A stretch of DNA of 63,987 nucleotides, counting the filler, from an uncultured bacterium (lineage in GTDB: Bacteria > CAYJRR01): NCBI GenBank assembly GCA_964372275.1. It is 3 parts of 3 records of this genome, joined end to end, with 100 filler letters (N's around TTAATTAATTAA, not from the genome) between each part and the next. Parts side by side here need not be neighbours in the genome. Positions count along the whole stretch, not along the records: positions 28,233 to 55,587 come from CAYJRR010000060.1; 2 more parts are not named here. One strand, written 5' to 3'. The first letter of the stretch is position 1, and every line of letters starts with the position of its first letter. The notes under the pieces are model-generated. The model was not told the origin of the DNA. It saw only the letters and a list, made by a program, of their open reading frames with translations, and did not search any database. Positions 6,159-55,687 of this stretch are shown here, piece by piece. The position numbers and the translations under genes were made by a program.

Positions 6159-6246
6159 CTCCCCGTGAGCCTGCAAAACCCCGGAACGCGCCGGTCTCTT
6201 CCGGAAAAAACGCGGCCCGGACCGGCCGGCGCTCGCGTCGCTCCGG

Positions 6247-49999: not shown

Positions 50000-50880
50000 A
50001 ACCGGGGATCCTCACCGCGCGCCTTCTCGACGGCGTTCCGCACGGCTTCACCACCCGGGTCGGCGGGGTCTCGGCCGGCCGGTGGGAGAGTCTGAACCTG
50101 GGGCGCCAGACCGGCGATGCGCCGGCGGCCGTGGAGCAGAACCACCGATTGGTCGCGGAGGCCGCGGGGCTTCCGCCGGAGGCGTTCGTCACCCCCGACC
50201 GGCAGGTGCACGGCGGCGTGGTGAAGCCGGTCGGCGCAGGAGAGGGTGGTGGGACTCCCCCCGGAAGCCGTGACAGGCGACTCTTCGCCCCCAGCGAAGG
50301 CTCACGGCGCCCCGAAGGGACGAATGCGCGGGTCGGTACCGGCGAGTGCGACGGTCTCTTCACCACCGCGCCCGGGGTCGCCGTCGGCGTGCGCGCCGCC
50401 GACTGCGTGCCGCTGCTCCTGTGGGACCCGGCGGCGAACGCGGTGGCGGCGGTGCACGCGGGATGGCGCGGCATCGCGGCGGAGATCCCGCGCATCGCCG
50501 TCCAACGGCTGGTCGCGGACGCCGGCGCAACGGCCGTATCACTGCGCGCCGCGATCGGTCCGGCGATCGGAATCTGCTGTTACGAAGTCGACGACGAGAC
50601 CGCGGCGCGGATCGATGCGGTGTCGCCGGGCGCGCCCCGCCGGGCGACCCGGCCGGGGCACGCCACGATCGACCTGCGCGAAGCCGTCGCGCGTCAGCTC
50701 CGCTCGGCGGGACTCGCCCCGGGCGCGATCGAGAGGGTCGGCGGATGCACCTCGTGTGAGCGCGATCGGTTCTTCTCGCACCGTCGGGATCGCGGCTCCA
50801 CCGGCCGCCACCTCGCCTTCATCGCCTGCCCGGTGCCGGCGGCAGGCCCGGTGCCGGCGGCGGGCCCGAGGCGACCGTGA
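49996..50880 (+). CDS. pgeF: Peptidoglycan editing factor PgeF (YfiH)
   Basis: HGFTTR.GG, QVHG, ADCVP, VHAGWRG, IGPAIGICCYEV, FFSHRR. Confidence 0.93.
   Translation: MKPGILTARLLDGVPHGFTTRVGGVSAGRWESLNLGRQTGDAPAAVEQNHRLVAEAAGLPPEAFVTPDRQVHGGVVKPVGAGEGGGTPPGSRDRRLFAPSEGSRRPEGTNARVGTGECDGLFTTAPGVAVGVRAADCVPLLLWDPAANAVAAVHAGWRGIAAEIPRIAVQRLVADAGATAVSLRAAIGPAIGICCYEVDDETAARIDAVSPGAPRRATRPGHATIDLREAVARQLRSAGLAPGAIERVGGCTSCERDRFFSHRRDRGSTGRHLAFIACPVPAAGPVPAAGPRRP
50238..50332 (-). repeat. Long structured variant of the coding-embedded repeat in pgeF
   Basis: Both repeat ends present (CCCGCGCATTCG...CTTCCGGGGGGAGTCCCACCACCC) flanking internal hairpins. Confidence 0.65.
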
Positions 50881-51770
50881 CGCGACGATTCCTGATCGTC
50901 ACGGTGTGCGGCGCGGCGCTCGTCTTCGCGCTGTCGATCGCGATCGGCATCGGCGTCGCCGCGCGCCTCCGGGCCAACCGTCGCGATTCTGCCGAGGTCG
51001 ACCGGCTCCTGACCCGGGCGCTCGACCGTCTCGACGCGGGGGACGTGGCGGCCAGCCGTTCACTGACCGAGCGGGTGCTTGCGGTCGCGCCGCGGACGCC
51101 GATCGCGCGCGCCAACCTGGGGCGGCTCCACAAGCGGCAGGGGGACTACGCCGCCGCGTTGGCGGAGCACAAGCTGGCACTGGCGGAGGCGCCGGACCTT
51201 CCGGATCTCTACTACAACATCGCCTGTTACTACGCCCTGCTGAAGCGGAAGGAGGACGCGATCGCCTGGCTCGCAGCGGCGCTCGACCACGGCTTCGGTC
51301 GACTCGACGTCCTCCGGCAGGACCCCGACCTCCAATCGCTCCGGGGCGACCCGCGATTCGATCTCCTGGTCCGGACCGGCCGCCTCGCGACCGGACGTGC
51401 CAGGCTCCACGTCGATCTCTCCACCCGGCGCGCGCGGGTCGACCAGCCGTTCGAGCTGTCGGCGGTGGTGGAGCGCGAGGCCGCCGGCGCATCGGGGAGC
51501 GACGCGCTCGTTCCGGTCGAGGTGCGGTGGTCGCCGGAGCCGCCCGTCGTCCGCCTGCGCGAGTTCCGCGAGACGGCGGTCGATCGCGGCGACGGCGTCA
51601 CGATCCAGCGCGTGACCGTCCGGTGGGTGTTGCGCGCCGGGACGGCGGGGATCTTCTCCCTCCCGCCGGTGATGGCGGAGGTCGGCGACCACACGGTGGA
51701 GGGGCGGGGACTGGTCGTCGAGGTGACCTCCGCTCCCGGAAGCGACGCCGGCGATGGCGGCGGGGAGTAA
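50877..51770 (+). CDS. Membrane-anchored TPR protein with C-terminal BatD-like Ig domain
   Basis: N-terminal TM; YYNIACYYA...DPDLQSLR; C-terminal AGIFSLPP beta-sandwich pattern. Confidence 0.7.
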   Translation: MTRRFLIVTVCGAALVFALSIAIGIGVAARLRANRRDSAEVDRLLTRALDRLDAGDVAASRSLTERVLAVAPRTPIARANLGRLHKRQGDYAAALAEHKLALAEAPDLPDLYYNIACYYALLKRKEDAIAWLAAALDHGFGRLDVLRQDPDLQSLRGDPRFDLLVRTGRLATGRARLHVDLSTRRARVDQPFELSAVVEREAAGASGSDALVPVEVRWSPEPPVVRLREFRETAVDRGDGVTIQRVTVRWVLRAGTAGIFSLPPVMAEVGDHTVEGRGLVVEVTSAPGSDAGDGGGE

Positions 51771-51776
51771 CGCGCC

Positions 51777-52640
51777 ATGACGGTTTCGGTGGGCTACGAC
51801 TTCGACGAGCGCCACGTGGAGGTGGACGGCGTCGACATCGCCTACGTCGACCTCGCTCCCGACGGCGGCGCGCGCGAGCCGCCGCTCCTCCTGGTGCACG
51901 GCCTCGGCGCGACGCTCGACCACTGGTCGATGGTGTTGCCCCTGCTTTCGCGGCGGCGACGCGTCCTCGCCCTCGACCTTCCGGGGTTCGGGCGGTCGTC
52001 GAAACCGGAGTTGGCCTACACGCCGACCGTGTACGTCTCGCTCCTCGCCGCGTTCGCGTCGCGCGTGGGCCTGGAGACCTTCGACCTGGGTGGCCATTCG
52101 ATGGGAGGGGCGATCTGCGCCGAGTACGTGCTCACCCATCCGGAGCGGGTCCGGCGCCTGATCCTGACCGACGCCGCCGGAATGACGCCGATGCCGAAGC
52201 GGCTGTTGACGTACCTGGCCCATCGATTCGAGACGAGGGTCGATCCCTCGCGGATCGTCCTCCCGCCGCGACTGGTCCGCTTCATGGTCGGACTCGTGAT
52301 GCCGGACGACCTTCCCTTCGCGCAGAAGAGCGTCGATCGTATCCTTGCCTCGATGGGCGAAACCGACTGGCCGCAGCGCGTCCGTTCGTTCGTCCGCTCG
52401 ATCTCCGGACTCTCCGAAGCGCGGGTGCGCTCGCGCCTGGCGGAGTTCGGGACGCCGACGCTGATCGTGTGGGGGGCGCGCGACCGACTTCTGCCTCTGC
52501 GCCATGGCCAACGGCTCCACCGCGGGATCCGCGGCAGCCAACTCGTCGTTTTTCCCGAGACGGGCCACTGTCCGATGATCGAGCGCCCGGACCTCTACGC
52601 CGACGAGGTCGAGCGCTTCCTGGCCGAAGGGGCGCCGTGA
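51777..52640 (+). CDS. Alpha/beta-fold hydrolase
   Basis: LVHGLG, DLPGFG, GHSMGG, WGARD, GHCPMIE. Confidence 0.92.
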   Translation: MTVSVGYDFDERHVEVDGVDIAYVDLAPDGGAREPPLLLVHGLGATLDHWSMVLPLLSRRRRVLALDLPGFGRSSKPELAYTPTVYVSLLAAFASRVGLETFDLGGHSMGGAICAEYVLTHPERVRRLILTDAAGMTPMPKRLLTYLAHRFETRVDPSRIVLPPRLVRFMVGLVMPDDLPFAQKSVDRILASMGETDWPQRVRSFVRSISGLSEARVRSRLAEFGTPTLIVWGARDRLLPLRHGQRLHRGIRGSQLVVFPETGHCPMIERPDLYADEVERFLAEGAP

Positions 52641-53578
52641 CGCACGGTGTGACCTGTCCGTCGTGCGCGGCGCAGATCGAGATCGGTGCCAGCGTCCTGT
52701 TCGTGACCTGCCCGGTGTGCCGGACGCGCTTCGCCCCGTCGGACGCGATCGACGGACCGATCCTCGAGATCGGGGAGATCCCGGAGGATCTCGCGATCGA
52801 CGAGGAGGGGGCGGAGCCGGGGTTCGAGGCGATGCCGCTGGAGGGGGACGGCGAGGCCGCCGAGGAGGCGGACGACGCCGAAACCGGTGCCGAGTCGGCC
52901 GCCGTACCGGTTGCCGACTCCGGTGCCGAATCCGCATCCGCGACGGAGACCGCGTCCGAGGCGGATCCCGAATCGGTCGGCGCAGTCGCGCCCGCCGCCG
53001 CGGCTCCGCCCGCCCCCGCCTCGCGGTCCGACGCGGTCGCCGTGCCGGTGACCGTTGCGCCGTCGGCCGAGCCGCCGTGGGCGACCTCGTCGACCTGGAA
53101 CTCGCCTGCCGCCCCCGCGCGCACGCCGAGAACCCCGCGCAAATCGCATCCCCGAGCCCGCATCGACGACCGCCCGTGGATCTCGGTCCGCGCGCGGATC
53201 GTGCTCGCGCTGGGACTGCTGATCGCCCTCGGGGGGGGCGCGACCGGCTGGGTCCTGTGGACGCGCGCCCACCGGCTCCGGAGCGCCCCCGACGATCCGA
53301 CCACGATCGCGCCGATGCCGGACGGGACGGCCGCGGTCGTCGCCACCGCCGGCACGGCGATCGCCGGGAGCGACGGCTCCGCGGCGTTCGCCGGCACCGC
53401 GGGAACGGCGACGATCGGAACGGGCGCGGACGCCTCGATGGGCGAGGGCGCGGCGGCGATCCTCTCGACGGCGGGCGAGCCCGTGCTGGAATTGCCTCCG
53501 ACGTCGACCCCCAGGCCGACGCCGAAGCCGAAGCTGCCGAAAAAGGCAACGCCACGCGGAACGCCACGGCGCCGCTGA
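52637..53578 (+). CDS. Zinc-ribbon, low-complexity, single-TM hypothetical protein
   Basis: CPSC...CPVC N-terminus, acidic/Ala-Pro linker, TM IVLALGLLIALGGG. Confidence 0.7.
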   Translation: MTHGVTCPSCAAQIEIGASVLFVTCPVCRTRFAPSDAIDGPILEIGEIPEDLAIDEEGAEPGFEAMPLEGDGEAAEEADDAETGAESAAVPVADSGAESASATETASEADPESVGAVAPAAAAPPAPASRSDAVAVPVTVAPSAEPPWATSSTWNSPAAPARTPRTPRKSHPRARIDDRPWISVRARIVLALGLLIALGGGATGWVLWTRAHRLRSAPDDPTTIAPMPDGTAAVVATAGTAIAGSDGSAAFAGTAGTATIGTGADASMGEGAAAILSTAGEPVLELPPTSTPRPTPKPKLPKKATPRGTPRRR

Positions 53579-53649
53579 TCGCTTCCTGATACCTTCCGGT
53601 CACGACTCCGGCTCCGACTCCCTTCCCGGGTCTTCTCGCGGATGGGCGC

Positions 53650-54552
53650 ATGCGCTACCGTCGCCCCACCATGATCCGCGTCGCCGACGTGCAGAAGCGC
53701 CTCGGGATCGTCGGGCGCGCCGAGGAGCTCGGGTCCCTGCTCGCCTGCGCGGAGGCGGGGCGGCACGTGTTGCTCGAAGGGCCGGTCGGCGTGGGCAAGA
53801 CGGCGCTGGCGCGGGCGGTGGCGTCGGCGTTGGGACGGCCGATCGTGCGCGTCGACGGAGATGGGCGGTACACCGAGCAGAAGCTCACCGGCTGGTTCGA
53901 TCCTCCGGCGGTGATGCGCGGCGGATATTCGGCCGACGCCTTCCTGGCCGGTCCATTGGTGGAGGCGATGCGCGGCGGCGGCGTCCTGTTCGTGAACGAG
54001 CTGAACCGCATGCCGGAAGGGGTCCAGAACGTGCTCCTTCCGGTGCTGGACGAAGGGGAGGTCCAGGTTCCGAAGCTCGGAGCGGTGAAGGCGGCGCCCG
54101 GATTCTGGACGATCGCCACCCAGAACCCGCGCGAGTTCGTGGCGACGAGCCATCTCTCGGAGGCGCTGCTCGACCGTTTCGAGCTGGTCGTGTTGCGGCA
54201 TCCGCCGGCCGCCGACGAAACCGAGATCTGCCGGCGCGAGGTTCTGTCGGCGCTGGGGACCGCTTCCGCTCCGGTCGACTCGATCGTCGCGTCGGCGGTC
54301 GCACTGGTCCGGGCGACGCGGAACGACGCTCGTCTCCGCCGCGGGGCGTCGGTCCGCGCGGCGATCTCCGTGGCGCTGCTCGCCCTCCGATTCGCCGATT
54401 CCGGCGAGTCGGCCTCCGCGGCGCTCGCGCGCGCGGCGCTCCTCGCGCTTCCCACCCGCGTGGAGCCGGCCGACGACGCGACGCTGCCGCTCGACGAGAT
54501 CCTGACGGAGTTGGCGGCGGCGGCCGCCACCGTCTCAAAAAAAAAAGCCTGA
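53650..54552 (+). CDS. MoxR/CbbQ-type AAA+ ATPase (short product of a candidate frameshifted gene)
   Basis: HVLLEGPVGVGKT, LFVNELNR, IATQNP, LSEALLDRF. Confidence 0.9.
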   Translation: MRYRRPTMIRVADVQKRLGIVGRAEELGSLLACAEAGRHVLLEGPVGVGKTALARAVASALGRPIVRVDGDGRYTEQKLTGWFDPPAVMRGGYSADAFLAGPLVEAMRGGGVLFVNELNRMPEGVQNVLLPVLDEGEVQVPKLGAVKAAPGFWTIATQNPREFVATSHLSEALLDRFELVVLRHPPAADETEICRREVLSALGTASAPVDSIVASAVALVRATRNDARLRRGASVRAAISVALLALRFADSGESASAALARAALLALPTRVEPADDATLPLDEILTELAAAAATVSKKKA

Positions 54553-54566
54553 CCGGTGAGCGGTCG
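54537..54566 (+). other. Candidate -1 frameshift/slippage signal: A10 plus downstream stem-loop
   Basis: A10 at 54537-54546; GACCG-GTGAG-CGGTC hairpin 54551-54565; -1 frame is open into the VWA ORF. Confidence 0.7.
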
Positions 54567-54569
54567 CTC

Positions 54570-55484
54570 GTGCCGGGGATGTCGGCGATCCCGGGACGTT
54601 CGGGCGCCGACGCCGGCGACGCGGAGGACGACGAGCCGCTGTTCGTCGCCCCGGAGACCGCCGCACGACTCGGTGGCGGCGATCCCGATCTCGTCGACGA
54701 CTGGCAGCTCGCCGTGCAGTTCGCCACCTGGAAACGGCTCCTGAACGCCCATCCGCGCCGCCTGGGACGGGCGCGCCGCCGCGCCGTCGCCGCGGTGGTT
54801 CGGCGGGCGCGCGAGATCCTGCAGCGCCAATCGCGTCCGACCGAAGTGGTGCTCGCCGACTGGACCCCCGGCTCGCCCGGCGAGCTCGACGTCGACGAGA
54901 CGCTCGACCGCGCGTCCGGTCGTCCGAATCCGGGTCCGGAGGACCTGGTCGTCGCCGATCGCCGGGAGAAGCGCGCCGACCTGGCGTTGGCGCTCGACGT
55001 CTCGCTCTCCATGGCGGGGGAGAACCTGGCGCTGGTGGCGGTCGCCGCGGCCGTGCTGGCGCTGCGCGCCGATCCGCGCGACCTTTCCGTCGTCGCCTTC
55101 GAGACGCACGCCCAGCTCCTCACCGCCCGAGGCGACGCGACCACGGCGGAGGAGGTGGTGCGCCGGATCCTCGAGATTCCGGCCGGCGGATTCACCAACA
55201 TCGAGGCCGGGCTCGACGAAGCCGCCAAGGCGCTGCGCGCGAGCCGAAGTCCGCGCCGCGCGGTGATCCTCGTCTCCGACGGAAAGTCGACGGAGGGAGG
55301 GGATCCGCGCGAGGCGGCACGACGGGCCCCTCGGCTTCACGTCGTCCACATCGGAAAGGATCCGCACGGCCGGCGGCTGTCCCGGCGGCTGGCCACGGTC
55401 GGCGAAGGGGCGTTCGAGTCGGCGCCCGGCTACCGACAGCTGCCGGCGGCGATGGACCGGCTTTCCCGTCGAATTTTTCGCTAA
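54570..55484 (+). CDS. VWA (CoxE-like) domain protein; probable C-terminal half of an AAA-VWA fusion
   Basis: ELDVDETL, MIDAS DVSLSM, FTNIEAGL, VSDG. Confidence 0.85.
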   Translation: MPGMSAIPGRSGADAGDAEDDEPLFVAPETAARLGGGDPDLVDDWQLAVQFATWKRLLNAHPRRLGRARRRAVAAVVRRAREILQRQSRPTEVVLADWTPGSPGELDVDETLDRASGRPNPGPEDLVVADRREKRADLALALDVSLSMAGENLALVAVAAAVLALRADPRDLSVVAFETHAQLLTARGDATTAEEVVRRILEIPAGGFTNIEAGLDEAAKALRASRSPRRAVILVSDGKSTEGGDPREAARRAPRLHVVHIGKDPHGRRLSRRLATVGEGAFESAPGYRQLPAAMDRLSRRIFR

Positions 55485-55587: not shown

Positions 55588-55687
55588 NNNNNNNNNNNNN
55601 NNNNNNNNNNNNNNNNNNNNNNNNNNNNNNNTTAATTAATTAANNNNNNNNNNNNNNNNNNNNNNNNNNNNNNNNNNNNNNNNNNNN
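55588..55687. other. Artificial contig-joining linker
   Basis: 100-nt N-run with TTAATTAATTAA. Confidence 0.97.

What the first reader, a model, noticed from the sequence alone, without database searches (positions are those of the whole stretch)
53650..55484. Candidate programmed -1 frameshift (A10 plus hairpin) giving both an AAA+ ATPase and an AAA-VWA fusion from one locus
Seen: the AAA+ ORF ends TCA AAA AAA AAA GCC TGA with a 10-A run (54537-54546), exceptional in such GC-rich DNA. The -1 frame reads on without stops (KKKSLTGERSLVPGMSA...GDAEDDE) into the VWA ORF. A GACCG-GTGAG-CGGTC stem starts 4 nt after the run, and the VWA ORF has no clear Shine-Dalgarno. A -1 ribosomal shift or one added A would give a ~611-aa AAA-acidic linker-VWA protein alongside the 300-aa ATPase. 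Known: frameshifted chlD chelatase genes use poly-A sites to make ChlI-like and ChlD-like subunits. Inference: the same recoding logic in a MoxR/CbbQ-CoxE-type chaperone pair, setting subunit stoichiometry.
Basis: partly seen in the sequence, partly recalled or inferred. Interest (0 to 1): 0.87.

Follow-up and report, generated by a model that had tools for sequence, protein, structure and literature searches.

The report
Conserved poly-A slip site joins ATPase-VWA
A run of ten A's at the end of an ATPase gene is a slip site kept across many bacteria and archaea, and it most likely lets this locus make both the ATPase alone and a long ATPase-plus-VWA protein, a trick already published for the related chelatase gene chlD.

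Summary
A10 lies at 54537-54546, the ATPase frame stops 3 nt later, and the VWA gene is open in the -1 frame. The run is not an assembly slip: contigs of three runs from two studies bridge it with no gaps.

Of 77 usable homologous loci (76 species genomes plus the window):
- 65 are split with VWA in -1 (A9 x30, A10 x25, A7 x9, A6 x1), and that frame is open from the run in all 65.
- 8 archaeal loci are natural in-frame fusions without any A-run.

Outside the run, lysine in GC-rich loci is AAG 199:20. In 15 of 65 loci the VWA frame has no start codon before the conserved part. In relatives, the -1 frame shows a coding signature directly after the run.

This is therefore a conserved -1 recoding site, working through RNA-polymerase slippage, ribosomal frameshifting or both.

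The proposed hairpin is not supported (z -0.89). The stoichiometry idea is weakened, because five fusion genomes have no separate same-family ATPase.

The protein is a MoxR-like AAA_5 ATPase with a VWA_CoxE partner, not ChlD, and 0 of 5 host genomes checked have CobN/ChlH.

The recoding logic is published for chlD. I found no paper for this family. This scan has noted the same phenomenon before on other DNA (eight notes). There is no RNA or protein evidence.

The parts
53650..54552 (+). 0-frame ORF for the short product: a 300-aa MoxR-like AAA+ ATPase (Walker A GPVGVGKT at 53779-53802) ending SKKKA*
   Evidence: Pfam AAA_5 scores 81 bits (cut-off 22) and AAA_3 54.8 bits (cut-off 27). One search found 3210 homologues, mostly 266-317 aa.
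54537..54546 (+). A10 slip site. It contains the heptamer A_AAA_AAA in the 0 frame. One added A in the RNA, or a -1 ribosomal shift, joins the two frames.
   Evidence: Runs of A7 or longer sit at the same place with VWA in -1 in 64 of 77 usable loci. The run is the only homopolymer longer than 6 in the window. Contigs of 3 runs bridge it as A10.
54546..55484 (+). -1-frame continuation, the C-terminal 312 residues of the long product: linker plus VWA_CoxE domain. An independent start at GTG 54570 is possible but has no SD.
   Evidence: Pfam VWA_CoxE scores 50 bits (cut-off 26.4). It is collinear with the C-terminal halves of 8 natural fusions.
54636..54656 (+). Conserved linker motif PLFVAPE (family pattern F-[LVI]-[PA]-P-E), encoded in the -1 frame
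   Evidence: -1-frame peptides of 65 loci. In 15 of 65 loci no start codon precedes this part.
54996..55010 (+). MIDAS motif DVSLS (DxSxS) of the VWA domain
   Evidence: At least 90% conserved among 75 VWA sequences, together with the downstream T and D.
54551..54565 (+). It is present but not shown to be a signal.
   Evidence: -8.6 kcal/mol, z -0.89, 35 of 200 shuffles fold as well. My own 50-nt window gave z -0.94.

Best explanation
The locus is one ancestral AAA-linker-VWA gene, interrupted at a selected poly-A run. Standard reading gives a 300-aa MoxR-like ATPase that stops 3 nt after the run. A one-base slip at the run gives a 611-aa ATPase-linker-VWA(MIDAS) protein. The slip is either one extra A put in by RNA polymerase or a -1 shift of the ribosome on A_AAA_AAA. 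For this A10, which has no significant 3' structure, I expect both routes to contribute, with RNA-polymerase slippage the somewhat larger share (about 55:45; this is inference).

Shown:
- conservation of the run at the nucleotide level;
- the constant -1 relation;
- the open -1 frame, and its coding signature in relatives;
- the existence of natural fusions.

Inferred:
- that both products are made here, and in what ratio. E. coli reporters for the chlD cluster gave 10% for A7, 40% for A9 and 63% for A11;
- that the short and long forms share one AAA+ ring, with the VWA/MIDAS arm acting as substrate adaptor.
For: -: of 77 usable loci, 65 are split with VWA in -1 (A9 x30, A10 x25, A7 x9, A6 x1). 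The -1 frame is open from the run in 65 of 65. Only 2 loci are in +1, and 8 are fusions without a run. L046 is also -1 at the junction.
- the run starts at codon positions 0, 1 and 2 in 22, 18 and 25 loci, so it is the nucleotide run that is kept, not a lysine codon pattern.
- lysine codons outside the run in 26 GC-rich loci are AAA 20 and AAG 199 (window 1 and 9).
- the fusions are collinear with the window's two frames, and their Lys-rich junctions have A-runs of at most 5.
- 15 of 65 loci have no ATG, GTG or TTG in the VWA frame from the run to 60 nt into the VWA homology. Only 6 of 65 have a start there with an SD-like motif.
- in 5 related loci, the 57 nt after the run show 59 synonymous against 89 non-synonymous pairwise codon differences and no stops in -1. 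The other two frames show 19 against 119-129, with stops.
- 118 of 120 homologous proteins have KK in their last 15 residues, against 50 of 2098 control windows.
- A10 in contigs of 3 runs from 2 studies.
- A-run loci lie on both sides of the midpoint root.
- the published reporter efficiencies for the chlD cluster.
Against: - There is no RNA or protein evidence for this locus or for any relative.
- In the window a GTG (54570) and an ATG lie 24 and 33 nt after the run, so the VWA protein could also be started on its own there.
- All 5 natural-fusion genomes lack a separate same-family ATPase.
- Two actinobacterial loci (L075, L101) have a decayed A4 at the site, and L101 has its own GTG start for VWA. 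So neither the short form nor the covalent link is indispensable in every lineage.
- The 80 loci are the best 80 of 504 relatives and are not independent of each other.
- The tree is a quick one with a midpoint root.
Confidence: 0.85

Rival explanations
1. Two ordinary, separately translated genes. The ATPase ends in a functional lysine tail, the VWA protein starts at its own start codon (GTG 54570 or the ATG after it) by coupling, and no fusion is made.
For: The window has start codons 24 and 33 nt after the run. MoxR and VWA proteins are classically separate partners (recalled). L101 and L075 are split without a slip site.
Against: A lysine tail does not explain any of the following: all-AAA codons in GC-rich genomes; runs extended through the preceding codon at all three phases; a 65:2 bias for -1; 15 of 65 loci without any start before the conserved linker; the -1 coding signature directly after the run; or the natural fusions.
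Confidence: 0.07
2. Heritable phase variation. DNA-polymerase slippage at the run switches cells between a split state and a fused state.
For: A9-A11 runs are mutable during replication (stated in PMC3711429). Two loci, L062 (A9) and L065 (A11), are in +1.
Against: None of the run-bearing usable loci is in frame. Run length is stable within diverged clades; for example, all 7 rows of one clade are A10. Contigs from 3 runs show no length variant, which is weak evidence because contigs drop rare variants.
Confidence: 0.05
3. Assembly or sequencing error. The true sequence is A11 and the gene is a plain fusion.
For: Homopolymers are error-prone, and the window is a metagenome-type assembly with N-joined contigs.
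Against: A10 appears in contigs of 3 runs from 2 studies. The same -1 arrangement with runs of three different lengths appears in 64 other species genomes. Real fusions in the family have no run.
Confidence: 0.02

Closest known systems
Frameshifted chlD ('magnesium chelatase' fs-gene cluster): Antonov et al. 2013, PMC3711429 (passages read); Kuznetsov et al. 2022, PMC9227772 (abstract and sections 3 and 5 read); Antonov 2020 MBE (recalled, not held)
   Same: An AAA+ module and a VWA module of about 300 aa each, annotated as two genes. A poly-A / A_AAA_AAR site with a -1 shift sits at the boundary. The arrangement occurs in Bacteria and Archaea, natural fusions exist in other species, and a short and a long product are proposed.
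   Different: The ATPase here is MoxR-like. AAA_5 scores 81 bits, while PF01078 matches only the P-loop at 28 bits. TIGR02031 scores 41 bits against a cut-off of 499.55, and TIGR02442 scores 35 against 779.45. The VWA domain is of the CoxE type. None of 5 host genomes of this family has CobN/ChlH. Fusion genomes have no separate small-subunit gene, unlike the chlI/chlD logic.
dnaX tau/gamma recoding: E. coli A_AAA_AAG frameshift and Thermus thermophilus A9 transcriptional slippage (as summarised in PMC3711429)
   Same: One gene gives a short and a long form of an AAA+ protein through a poly-A site. Both mechanisms are documented on the same kind of motif.
   Different: In E. coli dnaX the shift makes the short form, whereas here the shift makes the long form. 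The protein family is unrelated.
MoxR-VWA chaperone pairs: NorQ/NorD, CbbQ/CbbO, CoxD/CoxE, RavA/ViaA (family knowledge recalled; PDB matches)
   Same: An AAA_5/AAA_3 ATPase next to a VWA-MIDAS partner. NorQ matches at 3e-13 and CbbQ at 1e-6 by sequence.
   Different: Those pairs are separate genes with no reported recoding. This family scores below every equivalog cut-off (GvpN 85 bits against 266.8, MadB 71.5 against 475). Its Walker B is N-E rather than D-E.
Midasin (Rea1/Mdn1)
   Same: It is the best solved-structure match to the ATPase, at 1.4e-39. Its architecture is AAA_5 modules followed by an acidic linker and a MIDAS domain (architecture recalled).
   Different: Midasin is a eukaryotic giant with six fused AAA modules and involves no recoding.

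Membership tests
fs-chlD / ChlD-BchD medium chelatase subunit | N-terminal ChlI-type AAA+ module (PF01078 over its full length; TIGR02031 or TIGR02442 above cut-off) | tested here: not met
   PF01078 scores 28 bits, on profile positions 13-46 of 207 only. TIGR02031 scores 41.3 bits against 499.55 and TIGR02442 35 against 779.45.
fs-chlD / ChlD-BchD medium chelatase subunit | C-terminal VWA domain with MIDAS motif after a linker | tested here: met
   VWA_CoxE, VWA and VWA_2 all score above their cut-offs. DxSxS...T...D is conserved in 75 sequences.
fs-chlD / ChlD-BchD medium chelatase subunit | Conserved poly-A -1 site at the AAA/VWA boundary, with natural fusions in other species | tested here: met
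   64 of 77 loci have A7 or longer with VWA in -1, and 8 are fusions.
fs-chlD / ChlD-BchD medium chelatase subunit | Works with a large subunit CobN/ChlH encoded in the genome | tested here: not met
   PF02514 was found in 0 of 5 genomes that carry this family, while the control search found it in 5 of 14 reference genomes. This is not testable for the window's own genome, since none is held.
MoxR family of AAA+ ATPases | AAA_5/AAA_3 domain above cut-off, a single AAA+ module of about 300 aa, and a VWA partner gene directly downstream | tested here: met
   AAA_5 scores 81 bits against 22 and AAA_3 54.8 against 27. A VWA gene lies downstream in the 75 loci with an alignable VWA. Sources name the homologues 'MoxR-like ATPase'. 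Walker B is N-E instead of D-E.
CbbQ/NorQ/GvpN/MadB equivalogs | Score above the NCBIfam equivalog cut-off | tested here: not met
   GvpN scores 85.1 against 266.8 and MadB 71.5 against 475.
Programmed recoding site (-1 frameshift or transcriptional slippage) | Slippery sequence conserved at the nucleotide level, in a fixed frame relation, with the second frame open and coding from the site | tested here: met
Programmed recoding site (-1 frameshift or transcriptional slippage) | Direct detection of the trans-frame protein or of RNA with an altered run length | not testable with these tools
   No RNA holder is listed, and only DNA contigs are available.
Canonical stimulated -1 PRF cassette | Stable, conserved 3' stem-loop or pseudoknot 5-9 nt after the heptamer | tested here: not met
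   In the window z is -0.89, -0.40 and -1.02 for three spans. Across the family mean z is -0.62, with only 22% of loci below -2. A candidate stem exists only in an A7 subclade, in 5 of 7 loci, with a covariation term of +1.02.

The most novel reading that the evidence does not exclude
The slip site is an ancient, tunable expression switch of a 'mini-midasin' family of MoxR-VWA proteins shared by Bacteria and Archaea. Run length, and in A7 lineages a 3' stem-loop, would set the ratio of bare ATPase to ATPase carrying a MIDAS arm within one ring. In Bdellovibrionota-type genomes the system would serve as an ATP-dependent chaperone or reactivase of the B12-dependent lysine 5,6-aminomutase, whose genes it directly follows. 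It could also share its origin with the chlD recoding site, which would make poly-A recoding an ancestral trait of AAA-VWA proteins.
Probability: 0.15. Interest if true: 0.7.

Novelty: new member of a known kind. Interest (0 to 1): 0.5.

Why it matters
Current annotation splits these loci into two unrelated-looking genes, so it misses a 611-aa product. If the long form is made, MoxR-VWA systems of this type should be studied as one gene with two products. Conserved cellular recoding sites that span Bacteria and Archaea are few. This one extends the published chlD case to a sister ATPase family that has no chelatase partner. The family also shows three natural states that are ready-made comparison material: slip site, true fusion, and decayed site. 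The kamDE neighbourhood gives a concrete candidate client.

Tried and rejected
- Search for longer (fused) relatives of the VWA protein: no hit. The tool calls this weak evidence. Fusions were later found through DNA.
- Whole-genome search: no genome is held for the window.
- RNA evidence: no RNA holder is listed. The runs laid are DNA contigs only, so RNA heterogeneity and rare DNA variants could not be seen.
- The hairpin as a stimulator: rejected for the window.
- Family-wide 3' structure: only weakly enriched. Wilcoxon p is 0.002 and 0.025 against two control windows, and the loci are not independent.
- A7 loci against longer runs for strong downstream structure: 5 of 9 against 7 of 56, Fisher p 0.008, but only a few independent clades.
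- Careful tree: it did not finish in the time allowed, so the quick tree was used.
- A genuine fs-chlD locus for side-by-side comparison could not be fetched.
- Literature: Antonov 2020 MBE is not in the library. Supplements are closed, so I cannot exclude that one of the 146 GeneTack candidate clusters of PMC3711429 is this family.
- Papers on MoxR-VWA recoding: 6 papers; two read as passages and unrelated, the other four seen only as listings; 0 papers; 1 paper, unrelated; 0 papers.
- Aminomutase plus MoxR: 5 papers, none relevant by title (listing only).
- Earlier notes of this scan searched by sequence: none found.
- Structure and complex predictions were not run, because no claim here depends on them.
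Full report
**The observation**

The window holds an A10 run at 54537-54546. The 300-codon AAA ORF (53650-54552) ends TCA AAA AAA AAA GCC TGA. The 304-codon VWA ORF (54570-55484) lies in the -1 frame, which is open from 53223 to 55484. Reading the locus with a shift at the run gives a 610-residue protein. A -1 shift after K299, or one added A, gives 611 residues (my arithmetic). In 63,987 nt at 71% GC, the only other A or T run of six or more is an A6 at 6205-6210. About 100 nt after the VWA stop there is an N-linker with the string ttaattaattaa, which looks like a contig join. The downstream context is therefore unknown. No whole genome is held for the window.

**Is the A10 real?**

No RNA holder was listed. 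Four DNA runs from two studies hold the stretch. Contigs of X1 (54200-54698), X2 (54224-54590) and X4 (54432-54595) bridge the run with 0 gaps, and no insertions or deletions were listed. X1 may be the source sample, and contigs drop rare variants. This shows A10 as the majority state in at least two studies. It says nothing about minor variants.

**What the proteins are**

- The ATPase matches Pfam AAA_5 (81 bits, cut-off 22) and AAA_3 (54.8 bits, cut-off 27). PF01078 (ChlI) matches only the P-loop, at 28 bits.
- NCBIfam gives sub-threshold GvpN (85 against 266.8) and MadB (71.5 against 475). It also gives very weak BchD-ChlD (41 against 499.55) and Cob-chelat-sub (35 against 779.45).
- The second frame matches VWA_CoxE (50 bits, cut-off 26.4).
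- Walker A and the MIDAS residues DxSxS...T...D are conserved across the family. Walker B is invariantly N-E rather than D-E.
- The best solved-structure matches are midasin AAA modules (1.4e-39), then NorQ (3e-13) and CbbQ (1e-6).

**The comparative test**

A protein search found 3210 homologues of the ATPase, mostly 266-317 aa. Of the 120 listed, 118 have KK in their last 15 residues, against 50 of 2098 control windows elsewhere in the same proteins. All 20 closest homologues (66-72% identity) have it.

A scan of one genome per species found 504 relatives, and the best 80 were kept. By their record titles they come from Bdellovibrionota, Myxococcota, Actinomycetota, Thermoplasmatota, Hadarchaeota and other groups. 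Some titles are plainly mislabelled.

Of 81 sequences (80 loci plus the window), 4 were unusable because the contig ends or there is no VWA hit (L005, L006, L025, L078). The remaining 77 divide as follows:

| State | Loci |
|---|---|
| Split, VWA in -1, run of A7 or longer | 64 |
| Split, VWA in -1, A6 (L020) | 1 |
| Natural in-frame fusion, no A-run of 6 or more | 8 (L023, L038, L043, L045, L050, L067, L069, L080) |
| Split, VWA in +1, with a run | 2 (L062 A9, L065 A11) |
| Scored frame 0, A7 (L046) | 1 |
| A4, in-frame TGA between the two parts (L075) | 1 |

- L046 proved to be -1 at the junction, with a later frame break.
- Run lengths among the 65 loci in -1 are A9 x30, A10 x25, A7 x9 and A6 x1.
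- The -1 frame is open from the run to the VWA domain in all 65.
- The run begins at codon positions 0, 1 and 2 in 22, 18 and 25 loci. All nine A7 runs are in the phase A_AAA_AAA.

**Controls for selection on the nucleotides**

In the 26 loci with GC of 0.65 or more, lysine outside the run is AAA 20 times and AAG 199 times (window: 1 and 9). The eight fusions are 609-630 codons from stop to stop. Their N-terminal part aligns with the window's 0-frame ATPase and their C-terminal part with the window's -1-frame translation. Their Lys-rich junctions have no A-run longer than 5.

**Is the -1 frame translated from the run?**

In 15 of 65 split loci there is no ATG, GTG or TTG in the VWA frame between the run and 60 nt into the VWA homology. 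Only 6 of 65 have a start there with an SD-like motif. That SD test is crude and not suited to all taxa.

The -1-frame peptides share a linker motif, F-[LVI]-[PA]-P-E (PLFVAPE in the window, 54636-54656).

I then compared five loci of a well-supported seven-member clade, leaving out L058 and L068 because of indels. For the 57 nt after the run:

| Frame | Variable columns at codon positions 1, 2, 3 | Synonymous / non-synonymous pairwise codon differences | Stops |
|---|---|---|---|
| -1 (VWA frame) | 12, 8, 17 | 59 / 89 | none |
| 0 (AAA frame) | 8, 17, 12 | 19 / 129 | present |
| +1 | 16, 12, 8 | 19 / 119 | present |

In the window itself a GTG (54570) and an ATG follow the run by 24 and 33 nt. 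Independent initiation cannot be excluded there.

**Distribution on a tree**

The careful tree did not finish. The quick tree (SH-aLRT support, midpoint root) puts A-run loci on both sides of the root and in every major clade. Seven fusions form one archaeal clade, and L023 lies apart. Both are nested in a clade with 99% support whose other members have A9 or, in one case, A11. The placement of the window itself is unresolved.

**The hairpin**

The stem at 54551-54565 folds at -8.6 kcal/mol with z -0.89, and 35 of 200 shuffles fold as well. Longer spans give z -0.40 and -1.02.

Across 65 loci, the 50 nt after the run have mean z -0.62 against +0.10 and -0.13 in two control windows (Wilcoxon p 0.002 and 0.025). 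Twenty-two percent are below -2.

Strong structures are concentrated in A7 loci: 5 of 9 against 7 of 56 (Fisher p 0.008; few independent clades). In seven A7 loci a stem GTCGCCG...CGGCGAC is kept in five, but the covariation term is +1.02, so there is no net support.

My reading is that A7 lineages may use a classical stimulated ribosomal frameshift, while A9/A10 lineages, the window among them, need no structure. That fits RNA-polymerase slippage or unstimulated shifting.

**Relation to chlD**

The published 'magnesium chelatase' cluster has 23 genes from six genera of Bacteria and Archaea. Each locus is annotated as two genes of about 1000 nt, the shift is -1, and fusions exist in other species. 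E. coli reporters gave 63% for A11, 40% for A9 and 10% for A7 (PMC3711429, passages). The 2016 review notes the A_AAA_AAR site under purifying selection (PMC5009743, passages). Kuznetsov et al. 2022 describe fs-chlD genes, some of them in genomes without chlorophyll or B12 pathways (PMC9227772, abstract and sections 3 and 5).

The present family shares the logic but not the membership. It fails the ChlI/ChlD models. Three host genomes have no TIGR02442 hit above the cut-off. None of 5 host genomes has CobN/ChlH, although the control search finds it in 5 of 14 reference genomes.

**A result against the two-subunit model**

For chlD, frameshift signals are reported to be enriched where no chlI gene exists (Antonov 2020, recalled; cited in PMC9227772). 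Here, all 5 natural-fusion genomes examined have only the fused gene, and the next-best ATPase scores about 42 bits. The long form alone therefore suffices in those lineages.

Conversely, L075 and L101 (a second copy in one actinobacterial genome) carry a decayed CCAAAAGCCTGA at the site, which resembles the window's TCAAAAAAAAAAGCCTGA. L101 has its own GTG start for VWA. Another second copy, L102, again has A9 with VWA in -1 (frame worked out by hand). The family thus exists in three states, and the slip site more likely tunes a ratio than supplies an indispensable second subunit.

**Function**

In 27 of 80 loci, all of the Bdellovibrionota type, the pair directly follows same-strand genes for D-lysine 5,6-aminomutase. 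These are the alpha subunit (PF09043, 26 loci) and a B12-binding beta subunit (OAM_dimer plus B12-binding, 27 loci). BKACE lies downstream in 6 loci. Eleven Myxococcota-type loci have a Bax1-I gene upstream.

The window has an alpha/beta hydrolase (51777-52640) and an unassigned ORF upstream. An earlier, unchecked note of this scan reports a kamA-kamD-kamE cluster elsewhere in the same genome. A role as chaperone or reactivase of the B12 enzyme is a lead only.

**Novelty**

The recoding type is known. I found no paper on it in MoxR-VWA genes:
- 6 papers. Two were read as passages and are unrelated. The other four were seen only as listings.
- 0 papers.
- 1 paper, unrelated.
- 0 papers.

The supplements of PMC3711429 are closed and might list such a cluster. 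This scan has already noted the same phenomenon in other genomes (eight notes). A search of the notes by sequence found no note on this particular subfamily.

**Verdict**

This is a real, conserved -1 recoding site and a new member of a known kind. Confidence is 0.85 and interest is 0.5.

Noticed in passing
L001, L006, L011, L013, L015, L016, L019, L020, L027, L029, L030, L037, L042, L044, L047, L049, L051-L053, L058-L062, L068, L073, L074 (about 70-2500 in locus coordinates): In 27 of 80 loci the ATPase-VWA pair directly follows same-strand genes for the B12-dependent D-lysine 5,6-aminomutase (alpha PF09043; beta OAM_dimer plus B12-binding). A BKACE gene lies downstream in 6. This suggests the aminomutase as a client. 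I found no paper linking MoxR to this enzyme (listing only).
   Followed up: partly
window 53650-54549: The best solved-structure matches of the ATPase are midasin AAA modules (1.4e-39), far above NorQ (3e-13) and CbbQ (1e-6). With its acidic linker and MIDAS domain, the long product looks like a one-module midasin.
   Followed up: no
window 53995-54000 (N116-E117); alignment A1: Walker B is N-E instead of the usual D-E. N116, E117, N119 and R120 are invariant in 33 aligned homologues and at least 90% conserved in 81.
   Followed up: no
L004, L012, L014, L024, L041 (about 8-45 nt after the A7 run): The A7 subclade has the heptamer in the phase A_AAA_AAA and shares a GC-rich stem GTCGCCG...CGGCGAC. 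This looks like a classical -1 frameshift cassette, but there is no net covariation support.
   Followed up: partly
L075 3378-3391; L101 2368-2379: Two actinobacterial loci carry a decayed site, CCAAAAGCCTGA (A4), that resembles the window's site. In L075 the VWA frame follows the TGA in the same frame, so readthrough or separate initiation is possible. In L101 the VWA is in -1 with its own GTG.
   Followed up: partly
L065 3381-3391; L062 3370-3378: These are the only two loci with VWA in +1. L065 has A11, while its two sister loci have A9 and -1. L062 has A9. They may be replication-slippage variants or assembly errors.
   Followed up: no
window 55590-55687: Runs of N flank the string ttaattaattaa, about 100 nt after the VWA stop. 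This is a join between contigs, so what lies downstream of the locus in the organism is unknown.
   Followed up: no
window 52663-53589 (and the long frame 50246-53578): The ORF upstream of the ATPase has no Pfam match. The overlapping long frame encodes a CPxC...CPxC zinc-ribbon-like stretch, Ala/Pro-rich segments and a hydrophobic stretch. Gene limits are unclear in this GC-rich DNA.
   Followed up: no
L024, L076, L002, L003 and others (record titles): Several 72-74% GC contigs carry record titles such as Klebsiella or Enterobacterales, which cannot be right. On the ATPase tree they group with Myxococcota-type loci.
   Followed up: no
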